Assembly: GCA_963749445.1 (NCBI GenBank)
Contig: CAVVMJ010000007.1
Location: 9,971 to 73,970 of the forward strand
DNA length: 64,000 nucleotides
Reading direction: 5' to 3'
Source: an uncultured bacterium
GTDB lineage: Bacteria; Patescibacteriota; Doudnabacteria; UBA920
Shown: positions 5,061-27,888 of the stretch, piece after piece
How positions within the stretch are numbered: position 1 is the stretch's first letter
Layout: each line of letters starts with the position of its first letter
Made by a program: the position numbers and the translations under genes
The notes under the pieces: model-generated
Told to the model about the DNA's origin: nothing
What the model saw: only the letters and a program-made list of their open reading frames with translations
The model's database searches: none

Positions 5061-5765
5061 TTAATTAGTTGTCTGGGTTGTAGTGCCCCGCTGTAAAATG
5101 TCGGAGGTCGTTAAGGTGGAGGTAATAATCGTAACAATGGAGTAAGCCAAAATTACCACTACCAAACCGACAATCGCGTTAATCAAAGCTTTTTTGCCTT
5201 TTTCCGACTGCTCCTCATTGCCCGCGGACGTAATGTACCAAAACCCGCCGACAATTAACGCGACCACCGCTATCAATCCGGAAAGAATCAATAAATACTT
5301 TATAACGACAAAAATCAAATCCACCAAGGTTCCCGCGCCTGCCGGGCTGCCGGCAGTATAAGTATTTGCCGGTACGCAAAAGCCGTTGATTTGCACCAGT
5401 CGGCTGTCGCCGCAAGGGCCACTCACCGTGGAAGGGATGGTTGGATTTAAGTTCACTCCTCCGCTATTTTGATACGCAGTACAAACCGGATCGTTCGGGT
5501 AGCTGTTGCAACAAGCTAACCCGGTTAAGCCCGAAGAGGCGCAGTCAACTTGCTTTGGCCCGACAATTCCGCCGGCAACGCAGGCACTTCCTGAATAAGT
5601 GCATCCCACTGTATTTGCGCACTGGATCGGATCAGCAATACCGGTACAATTATCGGCTTTAGCCAACAAAGGCCCACATGCCAAAAAACTAAAGGCCAAA
5701 GCAAAAACTGCAAAAAACACAAGTCCTGTCAGTTTATCAAATTGCAATTTGCTATTTTTTTTCAT
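5061..5765 (-). CDS. TrbC/VirB2-like (T4SS-pilin family) membrane protein with Cys-rich ectodomain
   Basis: Signal/anchor LTGLVFFAVFALAFSFLA, a Cys-rich N-terminal region, then the family core GGFWYITSAGNEEQSEKGKKALINAIVGLVVVILAY (two TM helices around a charged loop). Confidence 0.8.
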   Translation of the reverse strand: MKKNSKLQFDKLTGLVFFAVFALAFSFLACGPLLAKADNCTGIADPIQCANTVGCTYSGSACVAGGIVGPKQVDCASSGLTGLACCNSYPNDPVCTAYQNSGGVNLNPTIPSTVSGPCGDSRLVQINGFCVPANTYTAGSPAGAGTLVDLIFVVIKYLLILSGLIAVVALIVGGFWYITSAGNEEQSEKGKKALINAIVGLVVVILAYSIVTIITSTLTTSDILQRGTTTQTTN

Positions 5766-7061: not shown

Positions 7062-7946
7062 TCATCTCGGGCTCGGCCCAGGCGTAGGATAGGTTAAATT
7101 CTTATTGGTGGCTTGGCCGCAAACAAAAGTTTGCACCTCCTGCCCGGGCTGTATGGGTTTCTGGGAAGCCATGGCCACGGCCCAGCCGCTTGCGTTTTGC
7201 GTATAGTTTGATTGCATATAATCCGCGCCGTCAACTTTTACGGTAAAAGAGATAGGACTTACATCGCCACATATCATCGCAATCTGTGCCAATAAATCTC
7301 TTTCGCCAGTAGAAATTGTGGAATTCACTAACAGGCCGGGATTTTTGGGCGTAATGACAATATTGTCCCCCAAATAATTTTTATTGGTGCTCCTAGCATT
7401 ACTGACATCCTGTAAACTGATGCCCGCGAACATCGGGTTGGAATAAGCATTGCCTCCTTGCGTACCCGCGACCGCCGGATTGGTGTTGGTATTAGCCGAC
7501 GGATTAGTTACTGCCGGGGTATTGCCATTGCCGGTACTGCCCCCGGTCAACCCGCTGGTTAGCAAATTAACCGTGATGCGGACTATGGCATAAGCCATAA
7601 TAATTACGACCAAACCGATAATCGCGCTGGTAATGGCCTTGCGGCCTTTTTCGGATTGCTCCTCGTTGCCCGCGGCCGTCAGGTACCAAAAACCGCCCAA
7701 AATTATGAACACTACGGCCACCAAGGCGGCAAATTCCAGCAATAACTGGATAACATTGCCCACGGCCTGCTGGGGCGTACATAGTTTGGGGAGGCCTTCA
7801 ATGGTATTTACCGGTTTGCCGTTAACGGTAATTTGAAACTGGCCAAAAAACTTGTTGCAATCAAATTGCGCCGACGCCGGCATGGCCAACAGCCAGCTGA
7901 AAAGGATTATCACCAGAAAAAATTGAAGCTTATGCGTTTTCTTCAT
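7062..7946 (-). CDS. TrbC/VirB2-like pilin-family protein with about 150-aa C-terminal extension
   Basis: Signal LQFFLVIILFSWLLAMPASA; core GGFWYLTAAGNEEQSEKGRKAITSAIIGLVVIIMAY. Followed by a Gly/Asn/Thr linker and a C-terminal domain (…ISFTVKVDGADYMQSNYTQNASGW…). Confidence 0.8.
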   Translation of the reverse strand: MKKTHKLQFFLVIILFSWLLAMPASAQFDCNKFFGQFQITVNGKPVNTIEGLPKLCTPQQAVGNVIQLLLEFAALVAVVFIILGGFWYLTAAGNEEQSEKGRKAITSAIIGLVVIIMAYAIVRITVNLLTSGLTGGSTGNGNTPAVTNPSANTNTNPAVAGTQGGNAYSNPMFAGISLQDVSNARSTNKNYLGDNIVITPKNPGLLVNSTISTGERDLLAQIAMICGDVSPISFTVKVDGADYMQSNYTQNASGWAVAMASQKPIQPGQEVQTFVCGQATNKNLTYPTPGPSPR

Positions 7947-18809: not shown

Positions 18810-19547
18810 TTAGGCAGGTAAACTGATTTGCCAAAGCGCTTCAAATAAGTAACCCAAATTCTGGTTCAGCTCCGCGCTTTCAACAATCATGCCAAAATTT
18901 TCTTTTGTTGAAGAAATAATCCCAACTTTATCGTCATAGATATATAAGGTCATGGCAAAAATCATATTTGCTGGGGCGTAACGCAATAACCTTAATTCAG
19001 AAGGGTCGGTCGGCCAAGTTTCTTTTACATCTTTTTGCTTGCTTCTAACAACCCTCAAAGCATAACCTGATTTAATTCTCCGCGCAACATATTCTTTCAT
19101 AAATCTTTCGCCGGGGATTTTAAATAAGTCAACTATCGATAACACGCCTCTTATATTTTTGTCCGGGGTTGAAATTGTATCTTCTAAAACCGTTTTAATT
19201 CCCTCCACTCCTTCGTAAAAAGAAGTTTTCGGCTTAGACTTTAAAGTATTGTAAACAGACTTAAGTTCCGGCAACAAGCTGTCAAAAGTTCGTTGTTTTT
19301 CGGCCAAATTCCGTTTAATTTTTTCCGGGTCATTGGCGATATAATACCGGACTTTATGTTTTTCATATGCCCCCACTAATCCTTCTTCCGCGAGTTTTTC
19401 CAAAAGATCGTAGGCAGTCGGCCTGGCCACCTTGGCTCTCAAAGCAATCTCGTGGGCCTTGGCCTGCCCCATTTCCAAAAGCGCCAAATAAACCCGCGCT
19501 TTTTTATCGTCCAAACCGAATTCCTTTAAGTCTTCTTTTAATGCCAT
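18810..19547 (-). CDS. TrmB-family transcriptional regulator
   Basis: From MALKEDLKEFGLDDKKARVYLALLEMGQAKAHEIALRAKVARPTAYDLLEKLAEEGLV (TrmB-type wHTH) plus a C-terminal domain. The track start 19685 adds an AT-rich, implausible leader. Confidence 0.8.
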   Translation of the reverse strand: MALKEDLKEFGLDDKKARVYLALLEMGQAKAHEIALRAKVARPTAYDLLEKLAEEGLVGAYEKHKVRYYIANDPEKIKRNLAEKQRTFDSLLPELKSVYNTLKSKPKTSFYEGVEGIKTVLEDTISTPDKNIRGVLSIVDLFKIPGERFMKEYVARRIKSGYALRVVRSKQKDVKETWPTDPSELRLLRYAPANMIFAMTLYIYDDKVGIISSTKENFGMIVESAELNQNLGYLFEALWQISLPA

Positions 19548-19718
19548 AAAATTGCGTTTACGATGCTTTTTTGATATTTGTCGAAACTTTTCGACTACAT
19601 AAATATTATATAATAATGCCTTATTTATGTCAACTATTGATAATAAAACTGTTATTAGTCGAATATTATTAACATCGTACGACAAAACTGTTATGCTTGC
19701 AGATTATAAGGAGGAAGT

Positions 19719-20102
19719 ATGCGCTTTGAATCCCAACAGACTACACACGGTCTACCGACAGTTGCCATCGACGACTTCGAAAAGCTCGGCAAAGGAGAGC
19801 TTCTCTGGTTTTTCCTTTTACGGATACAACGCCGCTGGAGACCATGGACTAACCGACGTCTTATGAGAGTTAGCTCAGACAATGGTGTGGTGTTCGTCAA
19901 CAACTTTCTTAACAGATTGCCGAAAGAACTGATTTGCTCCGGGGGTGAGGGAACCCACGGTCTGATCTGCAAAGGTGATGACGGCAAAATAAACGTGCTC
20001 TTGGGCTCTTGGGGGCCAGAACTTTCACTCCCCCTTGCGAAACAGGCTGTTCAGTTGCTGTCCGAAGCCGGCCTACCAGCCAAAATCTTCGGAAAAGAAT
20101 AG
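19719..20102 (+). CDS. hypothetical protein (SD-bearing orphan divergent from TrmB regulator)
   Basis: ATG 19719 has AGGAGG at 19709-19714. 127 aa with no recognisable family. Followed by a strong terminator. Confidence 0.5.
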   Translation: MRFESQQTTHGLPTVAIDDFEKLGKGELLWFFLLRIQRRWRPWTNRRLMRVSSDNGVVFVNNFLNRLPKELICSGGEGTHGLICKGDDGKINVLLGSWGPELSLPLAKQAVQLLSEAGLPAKIFGKE

Positions 20103-25276: not shown

Positions 25277-25406
25277 CTTTGTTGTTTCCCTTCTCCCCCT
25301 CTGGGGGAGATGTCCCGCCTTTGGCGGGACAGAGAGGGTGCATTAAATAAAATTAATCGATTATAATTTCTCGCCTCCCTATTTTACCATTTTTTTACCC
25401 GCCTTA

Positions 25407-26168
25407 CTAGCCTAAACTTTTCCAAATTAACTGGTACATCACCTTAACCACTTCCACTACCTCTTTGCTCTTTATTACCGCGGCAAAAGGCTTGTTTTCA
25501 AGATTCAAGATGGCCAGTTTGTCTTCATAAATAATAAAACCCGTTCCCACGCTTATTACCCCGGGCAAAATTTTCATTTCCCGCCACGGGGTTTTGGTTT
25601 TTTGCCATTCTTTCCCCAAAGCGAAAACCCCGGAATCCGTAATTATATAAATTTTTGGCCGGTCAGGATTGCCGCGCAAAGCCCAGGCCTCATTTAGGAT
25701 ATCCATTCTTTTTGATTTAACCAGTTTATCCAAAATTTTCGCGCCTGAGCCAAAAAAAAGCCAGGAAGTCGGGCACGCCGATATTTCCAAAGCGATATTT
25801 TTTAAGCCTTCCACCCCGGAATAAAAACTAACCTTTGGCTCTTCCGCGTATTGTTTAGGAAATTTAATAAGCCCGGGTAAAATACTTTCCAATAAAATTT
25901 CCGCATCAACAACCTGCCGCCGCATCCGCTTGGTCAGCTTTCCCAGCTTTTGCGGCTTTTCGGCTTCAAACAGCCTTTTCTTTCCGGCAAAACTTTCTAT
26001 AATCAACCCTTGTTTAATAAGATTCTCCAACGCCAAATAAACCGTCGGCCGCTTTATGCCTGACTGCTCCGATATTTGCCATGCCGATGAAGGCCCCAAA
26101 CTCAAAGCCGCCAAATAAACTTTGGCTTCGTGCTCACTTAACCCCAATTTTTGCAGTTCTTCTTCCAT
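25407..26168 (-). CDS. TrmB-family transcriptional regulator
   Basis: From MEEELQKLGLSEHEAKVYLAALSLGPSSAWQISEQSGIKRPTVYLALENLIKQGLI. Paralogous in architecture to 18810..19547. Confidence 0.8.
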   Translation of the reverse strand: MEEELQKLGLSEHEAKVYLAALSLGPSSAWQISEQSGIKRPTVYLALENLIKQGLIIESFAGKKRLFEAEKPQKLGKLTKRMRRQVVDAEILLESILPGLIKFPKQYAEEPKVSFYSGVEGLKNIALEISACPTSWLFFGSGAKILDKLVKSKRMDILNEAWALRGNPDRPKIYIITDSGVFALGKEWQKTKTPWREMKILPGVISVGTGFIIYEDKLAILNLENKPFAAVIKSKEVVEVVKVMYQLIWKSLG

Positions 26169-26329
26169 ATATATTTTGTCATCAAATTCTGACAACAATA
26201 ATATAACATAATCATTCAATGTTTGCAAGCAAGTTAATCCAATTTATATGAATTAGTCATAAAATATTGATCATAAATTCAATCGTATGGAATAATGACT
26301 AGTTGTAAACCTTAAGGAGGAAGAAAAAA

Positions 26330-27091
26330 ATGGAAATAAAGGAAATCTGCGAAGCGTACTCCGCGAGTGATGACGTCGCGTTGTTGAAAGCTTTGAACGA
26401 ATTCAGCCTTCGGCTGTCTTATTCTTGCCATTCGATTGGGCCAGCCGCCACGGCAATGCAGTTGCGCGAAACTCATCTGCTTGGGATCTTAAACAAGACC
26501 GCGGCTGAGGCAGAAGATAAGCCGGGGGGGTCTTTAGCTTTGGTAGTTGGACGCCTCTCCGCTTACATCCATTTTGTTGGACTAATCGCTGACCGTGAGC
26601 GTGTAGATTCGGTGGTCGCCCAGCTGTCTGATCTCCCTAACGCCGACTTGACTAACTTTTTCCTCAGAAATAGCTTCTGCCAAGGAGGACTGCGTCGTGA
26701 ACAGTTAGTTTACGCAGCCGCACGCTTTATCAAAGTCAAGGACGTTTTGGCGAGGTCTCGGTTCAGGCAACTTTTACGGATGGAGATGATTGAGTCATTC
26801 AAGGTGTACGAGACGCTGGAGGCGCAAGCGGAGGATCGGGCAGTGTTGCATTACAAGATAACCCATCTTGGCGAGGCAGTCCTGGAGCGCCTCATGCACC
26901 CGCACGAACTTGCGCTGTGGTTTGTAGATGAAGCGGCGTTTAATCCAGAACTGCGCGCCGCGATGAGGAACGAGATTAAACACACGTGGCCACTGGAAGA
27001 CCTGACGGTGCCTGACGCGGAACTACGCGCCATAACCGCAAGGCGGGATGAGATTAAACGCAAATGGTCATCAGATGAGCCGTCCGTCTGA
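26330..27091 (+). CDS. hypothetical protein (SD-bearing orphan divergent from TrmB regulator)
   Basis: ATG 26330 has AGGAGG at 26315-26320. 253 aa, helical, with a possible wHTH-like stretch RFRQLLRMEMIESFKVYETLEAQAEDRAVLHYKITHLGEAVLERL. No family recognised. Confidence 0.55.
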   Translation: MEIKEICEAYSASDDVALLKALNEFSLRLSYSCHSIGPAATAMQLRETHLLGILNKTAAEAEDKPGGSLALVVGRLSAYIHFVGLIADRERVDSVVAQLSDLPNADLTNFFLRNSFCQGGLRREQLVYAAARFIKVKDVLARSRFRQLLRMEMIESFKVYETLEAQAEDRAVLHYKITHLGEAVLERLMHPHELALWFVDEAAFNPELRAAMRNEIKHTWPLEDLTVPDAELRAITARRDEIKRKWSSDEPSV

Positions 27092-27130
27092 ACGGAATTA
27101 GGTTGTCCTGTTCGACGGGACAACCATCTT

Positions 27131-27174
27131 AAAACTGCCGGTACGCGTACCACGCCCCGGCAGTTTTTCTTTTG
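27131..27174 (+). terminator. rho-independent terminator
   Basis: ACTGCCGG (27134-27141) pairs with CCGGCAGT (27157-27164), followed by TTTTTCTTTT. Confidence 0.7.
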
Positions 27175-27290
27175 GTATTTTCACCCCTCCCTAACCCTCC
27201 CCCTCCAGGGGAGGGGAATAAAGAACGAAAAATCCCGCTCCGAATGGGGCGGGATTCCTATATGCTAATTACTAAATGCTATCTGCTAAT

Positions 27291-27888
27291 TACAAGCCCT
27301 TAACTTTAACCTTCTTCGTCTTCGCCTTCGCGGCCTTGGGGATTATTACCGTCAATATCCCGTCCTTCAAATCCGCCTCTATCTGCTCGCTGTCAATGTC
27401 TACCGGAATTATGACCGAGCGGGAAAATTGCCCCAGTAGCATTCCTGGTAAAAATAATCGTCCTGAACAATGGCTTCCTCTTTTTTGCGCGCGCCACGGA
27501 TAGTCACCATGTCGTTGGCCACGGTGATGTCAATGTCCTCGGGTTTGACGCCGGCAATGGTGGACTTGATAATCACGTTGTCCTTGGTCTGGTACATGTC
27601 TATGTTCAGCTGCCCTTCAAAATCCGACATCCATTCCTCGCCGCCGTTATTGTTGGCCCCGGCCGGAGCCACAACCGCGGGCTTGGCCGCCGCCGGAATT
27701 TCCGTAACCTGCTCCTCTATTAACACAGTTTCCTGCTCGTCGTCGTCGTCGGCATCGGCACCCAGCTCTTCGGCCTCCACAGTTTGCTGCGCCATGCCCT
27801 GTGAAACGCGCGGCTGTTGGATGTCTTCATCTGTCACACTGCCCCCCATAATTTTCCCGAAAAACGAAGCTCTGTCTTTCTTGGCCAT
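27291..27888 (-). CDS. Hsp20/alpha-crystallin small heat-shock protein, interrupted by a 1-nt frameshift as sequenced
   Basis: The track ORF ends ...VTIRGARKKEEAIVQDDYFYQECYWGNFPARS*. A second frame continues QFSRSVIIPVDIDSEQIEADLKDGILTVIIPKAAKAKTKKVKVKGL* to stop 27291-27293. Shift near 27412-27425. Confidence 0.8.

What the first reader, a model, noticed from the sequence alone, without database searches (positions are those of the whole stretch)
25407..27174. TrmB-like regulator divergently paired with an SD-bearing orphan gene (module B)
This is a second instance of the module. It has a TrmB paralogue (25407-26168) and a 161-nt AT-rich region with the inverted repeat TTGTCA-N8-TGACAA (26176-26195). 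TTAAGGAGGAAG and ATG 26330 follow, opening a 253-aa helical protein with a possible C-terminal winged-helix segment. It ends in two hairpins (27101-27125 and 27134-27164) with a T-run. The protein matches no family I can recognise.
Basis: partly seen in the sequence, partly recalled or inferred. Interest (0 to 1): 0.5.

Follow-up and report, generated by a model that had tools for sequence, protein, structure and literature searches.

The report
TrmB repressor guarding a swappable gene slot
A very conserved TrmB-type regulator of an uncultured Doudnabacteria (CPR) bacterium sits back-to-back with a two-operator control region that, in related genomes, drives quite different genes; here the gene encodes a rare winged-helix DNA-binding-type protein whose function is unknown.

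Summary
There is a TrmB-family gene (25407-26168, minus strand) and a 161-nt intergenic region with 24% GC. It contains the perfect repeat TTGTCA-N8-TGACAA, a strong Shine-Dalgarno (SD) site, a 253-aa ORF and two hairpins, the second a terminator.

The repeat alone could be chance. What makes it real is conservation. In about 20 related loci the same palindrome (O1) lies next to the TrmB start. In most of them a second site of the same form (O2) lies exactly 78 bp away, over the -35 of the divergent promoter. Paralogous module A has the same 78-bp layout.

The regulator is 70-93% identical across Doudnabacteria, more conserved than FtsK. It keeps a fixed position between ftsK and hsp20. The ORFs it faces are replaced by unrelated genes in relatives.

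The window's cargo belongs to a tiny family (22 clusters among 1.84 billion representatives). It has a MarR/PadR-like winged helix at residues 105-177, flanked by unmatched helical domains. Outside the CPR, members are coupled to a KGGVGR-type ATPase or lie near Lamassu, transposase or Rep genes.

Best reading: an autoregulated repressor controlling an exchangeable accessory-gene slot. The cargo's function is unknown. This is a new variant of a known kind, of moderate interest.

The parts
25407..26168 (-). TrmB-B: TrmB-family regulator, 253 aa. N-terminal winged helix at residues 5-71; C-terminal domain of about 140 aa not assigned.
   Evidence: Pfam PF01978 E 1e-16. NCBIfam TrmBL1/TrmB N-terminal matches. 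PDB profile hit to TrmB 3QPH, E 0.003. Orthologues 70-93% identical in Doudnabacteria loci.
26176..26195 (.). Operator O1: TTGTCA-N8-TGACAA. It lies 8 nt from the TrmB start codon and covers the predicted TrmB transcription start.
   Evidence: Read directly. Unique perfect copy in the window. Both arms are kept in about 20 related loci, while the 8-nt spacer varies in sequence but not in length. Top PWM score in the window, 26.0.
26200..26228 (-). Predicted TrmB-B promoter on the minus strand: -35 TTGCAA (26228-26223), 17-nt spacer, extended -10 TGtTATATT (26208-26200).
   Evidence: Consensus scan. Both hexamer blocks are conserved in register in related loci as CAAAAATATAACA and TTTACAA/TTGCAA. 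The promoter assignment is inferred.
26254..26273 (.). Operator O2: TAGTCA-N8-TGATCA (core GTCA 26256-26259, TGAT 26268-26271). Its right half overlaps the -35 of the cargo promoter.
   Evidence: Second-best PWM hit in the window, 19.0. The G-to-G distance from O1 is 78 bp here and in most loci that carry O2. Most relatives have a perfect GTCA-N8-TGAC.
26267..26296 (+). Predicted cargo promoter: -35 TTGATC (26267-26272), 18-nt spacer, TG-extended -10 AATAAT (26291-26296).
   Evidence: Consensus scan. TTGACC/TTGATC and (A)ATAAT are conserved in register in relatives. Inferred.
26312..26323 (+). Strong Shine-Dalgarno site TTAAGGAGGAAG, 6 nt before ATG 26330.
   Evidence: Read directly. An SD precedes the first ORF behind the control region in nearly all related loci where that ORF is held, whatever the ORF. 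Canonical SDs are rare in this window.
26330..27091 (+). Cargo B: 253-aa protein. N-terminal helical domain (1-100), MarR/PadR-like winged helix (105-177, insert in the wing), C-terminal helices (179-247).
27080..27102 (+). 3' junction motif CCGTCCGTCTGAACGGAATTAGG, spanning the last three codons and the stop (P-S-V-TGA).
   Evidence: Expected 0.02 copies per window at up to 2 mismatches. The same motif lies at or just after the stop of unrelated cargo ORFs in L008 (three copies), L009/L010, L011, L013, L017 and L023. Its role is unexplained.
27101..27125 (+). First 3' hairpin, 11-bp stem.
   Evidence: RNA fold.
27131..27173 (+). Intrinsic terminator: AAAACTGCCGG...CCGGCAGTTTT stem followed by TCTTTT (element T1).
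   Evidence: RNA fold, z = -4.6. The same element follows the cargo in L001/L002 (regex scan), with close variants after the unrelated cargo of L023 and the module A cargo of L017 (read).
18810..19547 (-). TrmB-A: paralogous regulator of module A, 245 aa.
   Evidence: tblastn 24% identity, E 8e-24. NCBIfam TrmB hits. Orthologues 77-82% identical in L003, L017 and L022.
19578..19675 (.). Module A control region: O1-A TTGTCGAAACTTTTCGACTA (19578-19597) and O2-A TAGTCGAATATTATTAACAT (19656-19675), again 78 bp apart.
   Evidence: Third and fourth best PWM hits in the window. In L003, O1-A shows a symmetric change on both arms, GTCGAAAC..TTTTCGAC to GTCGGAAC..TTTCCGAC.
19719..20102 (+). Cargo A: SD-led 127-aa orphan ORF (ATAAGGAGGAAGTATG).
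   Evidence: 67% identical orthologue next to the TrmB-A orthologue in L003. No family hit.

Best explanation
Module B is a self-contained regulatory unit.

1. TrmB-B is a TrmB-family dimeric DNA-binding protein. It recognises two 16-20-bp palindromes of the form (T/A)GTCA-N8-TGAC in the 161-nt divergent intergenic region.
2. O1 lies across the start of its own transcript, which gives autorepression.
3. O2 lies over the -35 of the opposing promoter, which represses the cargo gene.
4. An unknown signal, probably sensed by the C-terminal domain of about 140 aa, would release both promoters. The cargo would then be translated efficiently from its strong SD.

This unit is inherited vertically at one chromosomal site (recA-rodZ-ftsK | slot | hsp20-MGDG synthase) in Candidatus Doudnabacteria. 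The unit comprises the regulator, O1, both promoters, O2 and the SD, together with recurring 3' junction and terminator elements. The ORF or ORFs between SD and terminator are exchanged among relatives. It therefore behaves as a regulated slot for accessory genes.

In this window the slot holds one gene. It encodes a member of a rare family with a MarR/PadR-like winged helix between family-specific helical domains. The protein most likely binds nucleic acid itself.

Shown: the sequence features, their conservation and spacing, the fold, the synteny and the cargo turnover. Inferred: that TrmB-B is the binder, the sign of regulation, the existence of an effector, and the cargo's activity.
For: TrmB assignment.

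Operators:
- O1 and O2 are conserved colinearly in about 20 loci with a fixed 78-bp spacing. This holds even where the cargo is unrelated, as in L012 and L013. TrmB-B is the only protein-coding gene found next to the control region in every locus, so it is the likely binder.
- Paralogous module A has its own 16-bp palindrome at the same positions and the same 78-bp spacing. In L003 that palindrome carries a symmetric change on both arms.
- A third module in L003 has yet another 16-bp palindrome (AGCCGATTTATCGGCT) next to its TrmB start.
- No further sites rise above shuffled controls in the 64 kb, which fits local action.
- Promoter hexamers sit in the expected register with the operators.

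Synteny and conservation: flanks are conserved, and TrmB is 82-86% identical where FtsK is 67-82%, HSP20 59-66% and the cargo is 34% identical or absent.

Cargo turnover at the ftsK/hsp20 site:
- the 253-aa family alone;
- a small membrane protein plus a family member;
- a family member plus a CxxC protein;
- an unrelated 198-aa protein;
- a membrane protein plus a CxxC protein;
- a 153-aa protein;
- further types.

Cargo fold.

Shared 3' elements.
Against: - No binding, expression or effector data exist.
- O2 is centred about 40 bp upstream of the predicted start. That position also suits class II activation, so repression of the cargo is not proven.
- O2 is weak or absent in L016, L017, L021 and L023.
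- The C-terminal domain of TrmB-B gave no family hit and was not modelled, so an effector-binding role is assumed from family knowledge.
- The window's O2 has an imperfect right arm (TGAT instead of TGAC).
- TrmB-B is more conserved than FtsK. That is unexpected for a purely local regulator of a dispensable gene, and may point to further targets outside the window.
- Some close TrmB-B relatives (L018, L019, L023, L024) lie in other contexts and may be paralogues.
Confidence: 0.7

Rival explanations
1. TrmB-B autorepresses through O1 but activates the cargo promoter through O2. It would contact RNA polymerase from a site overlapping the -35, as a class II activator does. Archaeal TrmB can also act as activator or repressor depending on site position.
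For: O2 is centred about 40 bp upstream of the predicted cargo start. The cargo -35 (TTGATC) and -10 (AATAAT) are imperfect, as in activator-dependent promoters. The dual behaviour of archaeal TrmB is from my own knowledge of the family.
Against: In most relatives the -35 is a good TTGACC/TTGACA, and the -10 is TG-extended. That should allow activator-independent transcription, and a site covering the -35 hexamer is more typical of occlusion.
Confidence: 0.2
2. The slot carries conflict or defence-type accessory genes. The 253-aa winged-helix protein would be a sensor, regulator or effector of such a system, kept silent by TrmB-B. This would be analogous to WYL regulators (BrxR/CapW) placed next to varied defence systems.
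For: - The cargo is hypervariable at a fixed site, with toxin-antitoxin-type genes nearby: a HicB-like gene in L003, HicAB-like ORFs in L013 judged by eye from their sequences, and a DUF2283 gene in L012.
- Family members outside the CPR are translationally coupled to a KGGVGR-motif ATPase (NF047398). That ATPase hits the PADLOC candidate PDC-M28B. In L049 the pair lies next to a full-length Lamassu LmuA, E 2e-212.
- Other members lie next to an IS200-type transposase, or near a rolling-circle Rep gene and a Fic gene on the same stretch.
Against: - The window protein has no PADLOC or PHROG hit.
- The PDC-M28B match covers only the P-loop region of the ATPase.
- Only one defence-gene adjacency was seen.
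- No ATPase partner is present in the window.
- One cargo (L023) is a polyprenyl synthetase, an ordinary enzyme.
- There is no similarity to viral protein structures beyond generic winged helices.
Confidence: 0.25
3. This is an ordinary two-step regulatory cascade. TrmB-B controls a second transcription factor (the 253-aa winged-helix protein), which regulates housekeeping or stress genes such as the adjacent hsp20. Cargo differences between genomes would be ordinary lineage-specific gene turnover.
For: The cargo has a MarR/PadR-like DNA-binding fold. Its codon usage and GC are native-like. hsp20 is the conserved neighbour. JGI labels one homologue 'predicted transcriptional regulator'.
Against: hsp20 and the flanks persist unchanged in genomes where the family is absent from the slot (L012, L013). 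A needed housekeeping regulator would not be replaced by unrelated small proteins. The family is extremely rare and patchy.
Confidence: 0.2
4. The inverted repeat and the pairing are chance features of an AT-rich spacer between two unrelated genes.
For: By my own estimate a 6+6 perfect repeat with some spacer is not improbable in 161 AT-rich bases. Promoter-like hits are only about twofold above shuffles.
Against: The same palindrome, at the same distance from the TrmB start, and a second site 78 bp away are kept in about 20 loci and in the paralogous module. The gene pairing recurs in every family locus from Doudnabacteria with enough sequence.
Confidence: 0.02

Closest known systems
Archaeal TrmB / TrmBL1 / TrmBL2 regulators (Pfam PF01978; TrmB structure PDB 3QPH)
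   Same: N-terminal winged helix matching PF01978. Size close to TrmBL2 (about 250-265 aa). Recognition of an inverted repeat with a fixed spacer. Autoregulation and control of a neighbouring gene fit family behaviour, from my own knowledge of the family.
   Different: It is bacterial (CPR). NCBIfam equivalog scores are far below cut-off, 34 against 650. The C-terminal domain has no detectable match to the TrmB sugar-binding domain. The operator TTGTCA-N8-TGACAA differs from the known Thermococcales and haloarchaeal TrmB motifs. The target is not a sugar-metabolism gene.
MarR / PadR families of winged-helix regulators (for the 253-aa cargo)
   Different: No Pfam MarR or PadR hit reaches gathering score. 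The protein is about twice as long. It has an unmatched 100-residue N-terminal helical domain, a helical insert in the wing and extra C-terminal helices. No full-length structural match exists in PDB or BFVD.
BrxR/CapW-type (WYL-domain) regulators next to varied phage-defence systems
   Same: It works alike in outline: a conserved winged-helix repressor with its own operator placed next to, and presumably silencing, cargo that varies between genomes. The comparison rests on my own knowledge of those systems.
   Different: No WYL domain is present; it is a different protein family. The cargo here is not a recognised defence system. The gene orientation is divergent.
Integron cassette arrays (one promoter, cassettes bounded by 3' attC repeats)
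   Same: A fixed expression platform is followed by one to three exchangeable ORFs. A short recurring 3' element with hairpin potential lies at the ORF ends. L008 has three ORFs, each followed by the motif.
   Different: No integrase or other recombinase appears in any locus. The motif is about 23 nt, overlaps the stop codon and is absent from many loci. Each ORF has its own SD. The platform is repressor-controlled.
Operons of KGGVGR-motif variant AAA ATPases (NCBIfam NF047398; PADLOC candidate PDC-M28B)
   Same: Non-CPR members of the 253-aa family (P0010, P0023) overlap the start of such an ATPase gene by 1-4 nt, and P0012 is followed by one after a gap of about 210 nt.
   Different: The window and the other Doudnabacteria loci have no such ATPase; a TrmB regulator stands there instead. 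I found no paper on these ATPases in the library.

Membership tests
TrmB family transcription regulator (PF01978) | N-terminal winged helix-turn-helix matching the TrmB model above the curated cut-off | tested here: met
   PF01978 E 1e-16, 61 bits against 25.6, residues 5-71. PDB profile hit to TrmB 3QPH over residues 4-73.
TrmB family transcription regulator (PF01978) | C-terminal effector-binding domain related to that of TrmB/TrmBL (PLD-like subdomain, with or without the sugar-binding subdomain) | tested here: inconclusive
   No Pfam or NCBIfam match beyond about residue 75 for TrmB-B. The NCBIfam haloarchaeal TrmB alignment reaches residue 175 only in paralogue A.
TrmB family transcription regulator (PF01978) | Equivalog-level identity with a characterised member (TrmB, TrmBL1, TrmBL2) | tested here: not met
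   NCBIfam scores of 34, 24 and 18 bits against cut-offs of 500-650.
TrmB family transcription regulator (PF01978) | Sequence-specific binding of a dimer to an inverted-repeat operator near the regulated promoters | not testable with these tools
   Indirect support only: palindromes conserved in about 20 loci, fixed 78-bp spacing, and a symmetric two-arm change in module A.
MarR / PadR winged-helix regulators (253-aa cargo) | Winged helix-turn-helix fold | tested here: met
MarR / PadR winged-helix regulators (253-aa cargo) | Sequence match to the Pfam family models at gathering score | tested here: not met
   No hit for the window protein. Among 26 members only sub-threshold hits appear: HTH_20, HxlR and HTH_5 in 5 members each, MarR in 1.
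MarR / PadR winged-helix regulators (253-aa cargo) | Family-typical size and dimerisation helices (MarR about 140 aa; PadR 110-180 aa) | tested here: inconclusive
   The protein has 253 aa with about 100 extra N-terminal residues. Foldseek alignments to whole MarR chains have a TM-score of only 0.34-0.47, normalised to the target, and large rmsd.
Known anti-phage defence systems (PADLOC-DB v2) | Match of the protein to a defence-system model | tested here: not met
   No PADLOC hit for the cargo at E up to 1. TrmB-A and TrmB-B hit only the generic winged helix of Csa3/CasR/CARF models.
Known anti-phage defence systems (PADLOC-DB v2) | Recurrent embedding among defence genes | tested here: inconclusive
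   One LmuA neighbour (L049), and partner ATPases with a P-loop-only hit to PDC-M28B. Toxin-antitoxin-type genes lie near the slot in L003, L012 and L013. The sample is too small.
Integron-like cassette system | Site-specific recombinase (IntI) adjacent to the array | tested here: not met
   No recombinase gene in the window flanks or in the related loci examined.
Integron-like cassette system | Repeated recombination site at the 3' end of each cassette | tested here: inconclusive
   A motif of about 23 nt lies at the stop codon of unrelated ORFs in 7 loci, three times in L008. It is absent from many other loci. No recombination evidence exists.

The most novel reading that the evidence does not exclude
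Doudnabacteria carry a dedicated gene-cassette expression platform that works without an integrase. It consists of a highly conserved TrmB repressor, two operators at fixed spacing, back-to-back promoters and a canonical SD in an otherwise SD-poor genome. A short junction motif spans the stop codon, and shared terminators follow. Unrelated accessory ORFs are swapped in and out of this frame, possibly conflict or host-interaction genes such as this rare winged-helix family. The platform has been duplicated into paralogous modules (A, B and a third in L003), each with its own operator specificity.
Probability: 0.3. Interest if true: 0.75.

Novelty: new variant of a known kind. Interest (0 to 1): 0.55.

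Why it matters
CPR/Patescibacteria have very few transcription factors, and I found no paper on their regulation by TrmB-type proteins in the library.

This finding gives a concrete, testable regulatory circuit for an uncultured lineage. It specifies the regulator, two operators with defined sequence and spacing, both promoters and the target.

It also shows an unusual evolutionary pattern. The regulator is more conserved than FtsK, yet it faces a gene slot whose content turns over between close relatives. The slot is marked by strong SD sites that the rest of the genome largely lacks, and by a shared motif over the stop codon.

If the slot is a general site for accessory or conflict genes, it would be a handle for finding such genes in CPR genomes, where standard defence-system catalogues find little.

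The 253-aa protein also defines a new, very rare winged-helix family. Its non-CPR members pair with uncharacterised KGGVGR ATPases.

Tried and rejected
- Family scans of the 253-aa protein in Pfam, NCBIfam, PHROGs and PADLOC gave nothing.
- A single-sequence AlphaFold2 model was useless, pLDDT 38. The model built with the 26-sequence alignment was good.
- A profile search of the 5.8-billion-protein collection added no members beyond the phmmer search.
- Two family scans of GTDB species genomes failed: one alignment was too diverse to give search patterns, and the other found no relatives through its patterns. L011 and L014, fetched later through TrmB, do carry members, so the pattern scan under-reports.
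- The 3' junction motif in IMG/VR gave 99 hits. This is about my rough chance expectation, and none has the extended motif, so I see no viral link.
- Rfam at gathering score and at permissive thresholds gave no RNA family in the region.
- A PWM scan for further O1/O2-like sites found none above shuffles, apart from module A.
- The idea that the cargo binds O1 and O2 was set aside, because the operators persist where the cargo is unrelated (L012, L013).
- The inverted repeat AATTAGTCAT/ATGACTAGTT (26251-26304) is not conserved in relatives and was dropped.
- Compositional evidence for recent transfer of the cargo was looked for and not found.
- Literature searches for TrmB with CPR or Patescibacteria, for KGGVGR and for PDC-M28 gave no papers. 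Searches for TrmB-like with defence and for Shine-Dalgarno with Patescibacteria gave nothing relevant.
Full report
**1. Observation**

- A 253-aa ORF on the minus strand (25407-26168) matches Pfam TrmB (PF01978): E 1e-16, 61 bits against a cut-off of 25.6, residues 5-71.
- The 161-nt spacer (26169-26329) has 24% GC. It contains TTGTCA-N8-TGACAA at 26176-26195, the only perfect copy in the 64 kb.
- TTAAGGAGGAAG (26312-26323) precedes ATG 26330, which opens a 253-aa ORF ending at 27091.
- Two hairpins follow, at 27101-27125 and 27131-27167, the second with a T-run. The stretch folds at -39.9 kcal/mol, z = -4.6.
- Module A is also real. It has a TrmB paralogue (18810-19547, minus strand, 24% identical, E 8e-24) and a divergent 127-aa ORF (19719-20102) behind ATAAGGAGGAAGTATG.

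By my own estimate, a perfect 6+6 repeat with some spacer is not improbable in AT-rich DNA. The case for function therefore rests on comparison with relatives.

**2. Organism and context**

- The window carries type IV secretion pilins, RodZ, RecA and FtsK.
- TrmB-B orthologues of 82-86% identity lie in three Candidatus Doudnabacteria MAGs, and one of 62% in another Patescibacteria MAG.
- The order recA-rodZ-ftsK-TrmB-B-[slot]-hsp20-MGDG synthase is conserved in these genomes and in several metagenome contigs.

**3. The control region**

I extracted the sequence next to the TrmB start in about 20 loci. These came from family look-ups, GTDB genomes and metagenomes. The regions align colinearly without gaps.
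- **O1.** The site (T/A)TGTCAT-N6-TCTGACAAC is present in all of them. Both arms are kept, and the spacer varies in sequence but not in length.
- **TrmB promoter.** Next comes a conserved CAAAAATATAACA block, then TTTACAA/TTGCAA. Read on the minus strand these are an extended -10 (TGtTATATT) and a -35 (TTGCAA/TTGTAA) with a 17-nt spacer. This places the TrmB transcript start inside O1.
- **O2.** Exactly 78 bp from O1 (G to G; one locus has 79) lies (A/T)GTCAT-N6-ATTGAC. Its right half is the -35 (TTGACC, TTGATC here) of a plus-strand promoter with a TG-extended AATAAT -10.
- **PWM scan.** A matrix built from these sites scores O1-B at 26.0 and O2-B at 19.0 in the window. The next two hits are in module A (19578 and 19656), again 78 bp apart. 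Nothing else exceeds shuffled controls.
- **Module A and a third module.** O1-A is GTCGAAACTTTTCGAC. In L003 it is GTCGGAACTTTCCGAC, a symmetric change on both arms. A third TrmB module in L003 carries AGCCGATTTATCGGCT next to its start.

So three paralogous regulators each have a 16-bp palindrome of the same geometry but different sequence. This is what is expected of dimeric regulators that diverged together with their operators.

O1 and O2 persist where the cargo is unrelated. The binder should therefore be TrmB-B, the only protein-coding gene found next to the control region in every locus. That step is an inference.

**4. The cargo protein**

- **Rarity.** No Pfam, NCBIfam, PHROG or PADLOC family matches. 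Seven homologues turned up in the 5.8-billion-protein collection, and 22 representatives among 1.84 billion.
- **Fold.** With a 26-sequence alignment, AlphaFold2 gives pLDDT 86.9. The model has six helices (1-100) and a winged helix-turn-helix (helices 105-118, 123-134 and 138-150; strands 154-159 and 172-177, with a helical insert in the wing). C-terminal helices run to residue 247.
- **Sequence profile.** The family profile hits the MarR protein AdcR (E 0.0026) across the recognition helix and wing. Some members give sub-threshold HTH_20, HxlR or ArsR hits.

The flanking domains have no detectable relatives.

Codon usage and GC (0.53; GC3 0.59) are within the genome's range.

**5. Conserved regulator, exchangeable cargo**

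Every Doudnabacteria-type family member with enough flanking sequence is divergently paired with a TrmB-B orthologue.

The reverse is not true. At the same ftsK | hsp20 site the first ORFs behind the conserved control region vary:

| Locus | ORFs in the slot |
|---|---|
| window, L001, L007, L014 | one member of the 253-aa family |
| L052 | a 222-aa family member, then a GerE-type gene on the opposite strand |
| L004, L005 | a 92-aa membrane protein plus a family member |
| L008, L010 | a small ORF (88 or 89 aa) plus a family member; ftsK/hsp20 flanks not held on these short contigs |
| L011 | a family member plus a 226-aa CxxC protein |
| L012 | an unrelated 198-aa protein plus small genes |
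| L013 | an 81-aa membrane protein plus a 100-aa CxxC protein, with HicAB-like ORFs (judged by eye) |
| L020 | a 153-aa protein |
| L021, L022 | yet other ORFs |

- Close TrmB-B relatives in other or unknown contexts face a polyprenyl synthetase (L023) or further orphans (L016-L019, L024).
- Identity to the window: TrmB-B 82-86% (L011-L013), FtsK 67-82%, RecA fragments 78-83%, HSP20 59-66%, MGDG synthase 44-58%.
- Cargo identity is 79% in L004 but only 34% in L011, although the FtsK identities of those two genomes are alike. The cargo therefore does not co-diverge with the genome.

**6. SD sites and 3' elements**

- **SD usage.** A scan for GGAGG followed 3-10 nt later by a start codon and an ORF of at least 60 aa finds only about five plausible gene starts in 64 kb. 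Two of them are the cargo genes of modules A and B. RecA, RodZ, HSP20 and both TrmB genes lack an SD. In relatives an SD precedes the first ORF of nearly every slot where that ORF is held, whatever it encodes.
- **Junction motif.** The motif CCGTCCGYCTGAACGG(G)AATCAGG spans the last codons and the stop (P-S-A/V-stop) of unrelated ORFs:
  - the window cargo (27080-27102);
  - the 258-aa member in L009/L010;
  - the 226-aa CxxC protein in L011;
  - the 100-aa CxxC protein in L013;
  - the polyprenyl synthetase in L023;
  - a module A cargo in L017;
  - L008, where it follows each of three consecutive ORFs, each in turn followed by the next SD.

  At up to 2 mismatches the expectation is 0.02 copies per window. 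The motif can form a short hairpin (GCCTGA-N7-TCAGGC). The window copy keeps the pairing only through G-U pairs.
- **Terminators.** Three terminator elements recur after cargo ORFs of different kinds. In L003 the same element ends all three TrmB modules.
- **Negative checks.** An IMG/VR scan for the motif returned only chance-level, unrelated hits. Rfam has nothing in the region.

I leave the role of this motif open. It could be an intercistronic RNA element or a short-homology recombination junction.

**7. The family outside the CPR**

- P0010 and P0023 overlap by 1-4 nt the start of a 537-557-aa ATPase, and P0012 is followed by one after a gap of about 210 nt. The ATPase matches NCBIfam 'KGGVGR-motif variant AAA ATPase' (E about 1e-30). 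Over its P-loop region it also matches the PADLOC candidate PDC-M28B.
- In L049 a full-length Lamassu LmuA (E 2e-212) lies upstream.
- P0014 lies next to an IS200-type transposase. P0009 lies near a rolling-circle Rep gene and a Fic gene on the same stretch.
- No such ATPase is encoded in the window.

These are accessory or mobile contexts, but the sample is small.

**8. Mechanism**

Best supported (confidence 0.7): TrmB-B is an autoregulated local regulator.
- It binds O1 on its own transcription start and O2 on the -35 of the cargo promoter.
- It keeps both promoters down until an unknown signal acts on its C-terminal domain.
- The strong SD then gives efficient translation of whatever ORF occupies the slot.

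Rivals:
- Activation rather than repression at O2 (0.2).
- A conflict or defence role for the slot (0.25).
- A plain two-regulator cascade serving housekeeping or stress genes (0.2).
- Chance (0.02; refuted by the comparative data).

**9. Comparison and membership**

- **TrmB-B.** It meets the TrmB-family winged-helix criterion but no equivalog threshold. Its C-terminal domain could not be assigned. I file it as a TrmB-family member of uncharacterised subtype.
- **Cargo.** It has the MarR/PadR-like fold but fails the sequence models and the family architecture. It works like a winged-helix nucleic-acid binder but is not a member of those families.
- **The unit as a whole.** It resembles WYL-type (BrxR/CapW) regulator-plus-variable-cargo arrangements and, more loosely, integron arrays. 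It has neither a WYL domain nor a recombinase.

**10. Verdict**

- The finding is real and conserved, and richer than the first description.
- Novelty: a new variant of a known kind. It is a local repressor with a divergent target, here as a conserved platform with exchangeable cargo in a CPR lineage, together with a new rare protein family.
- Interest: 0.55. The circuit is directly testable and the evolutionary pattern is unusual. The cargo's function and the meaning of the 3' motif remain unknown.

Noticed in passing
window 27290-27888 (minus strand): The hsp20 gene is split into two overlapping ORFs (27409-27888 and 27290-27442). Orthologues read straight through (...QECYWGNFSRSVIIPVD...), so the window has a one-base frameshift near 27430-27440. 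It is either an assembly error or a pseudogene.
   Followed up: partly
whole window: Canonical Shine-Dalgarno sites are almost absent from gene starts in this 64 kb (RecA, RodZ, HSP20 and both TrmB genes lack one). The two TrmB-module cargo genes carry TAAGGAGGAAG. The 16S anti-SD sequence of this lineage was not available to check.
   Followed up: partly
window 25290-25340 and 27183-27250: GC-rich hairpin elements flank the module (CTCCCCCTCTGGGGGAG, TGTCCCGCCTTTGGCGGGACA, CCCTCCCCCTCCAGGGGAGGGG, AATCCCGCTCCGAATGGGGCGGGATT). Similar CCCCTC...GAGGGG hairpins occur in distant loci (L038, L039). They may be a family of intergenic terminator or REP-like repeats.
   Followed up: no
L001 910-958, L008 and L010 (between the TrmB start and O1): An insertion of about 50 nt containing the hairpin GTCATTCCGGCC...GCCGGAATC sits between the TrmB start codon and O1 in three loci. 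It is absent from the window and looks like a small mobile palindromic element.
   Followed up: no
L003 1-6622: Three TrmB modules lie in a row: TrmB-A with a 127-aa ORF; a third TrmB with a methyltransferase and a 200-aa ORF; then TrmB-B with a 257-aa family member. A HicB-like gene lies between the last two. All three cargo operons end with the same terminator hairpin (CCCTGTACC...GGTACAGGG, then a T-run).
   Followed up: partly
L047 621-7373, L049 4001-8867, L050 297-4986: In non-CPR relatives the family member and its KGGVGR ATPase are followed by UbiA prenyltransferase, PcrB (GGGP synthase-like) and an MFS transporter. A geranylgeranyl-reductase-like flavoprotein lies upstream in L047 and L050. 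This is an ether-lipid-type gene set. One TrmB-B-like slot (L023) holds a polyprenyl synthetase, and the window's slot neighbours an MGDG synthase. A lipid connection is possible but untested.
   Followed up: no
window 5061-5765 and 7062-7946 (minus strand): Two proteins carry the T4SS_pilin domain (PF18895), a domain I associate with CPR bacteria.
   Followed up: no
L018-L021, L024 (about 60 bp after O1): A subgroup of TrmB-B-like loci has an extra palindrome, TTGTCAAT-N-TTGACAA, between O1 and O2. It may be a third site or a variant promoter.
   Followed up: no
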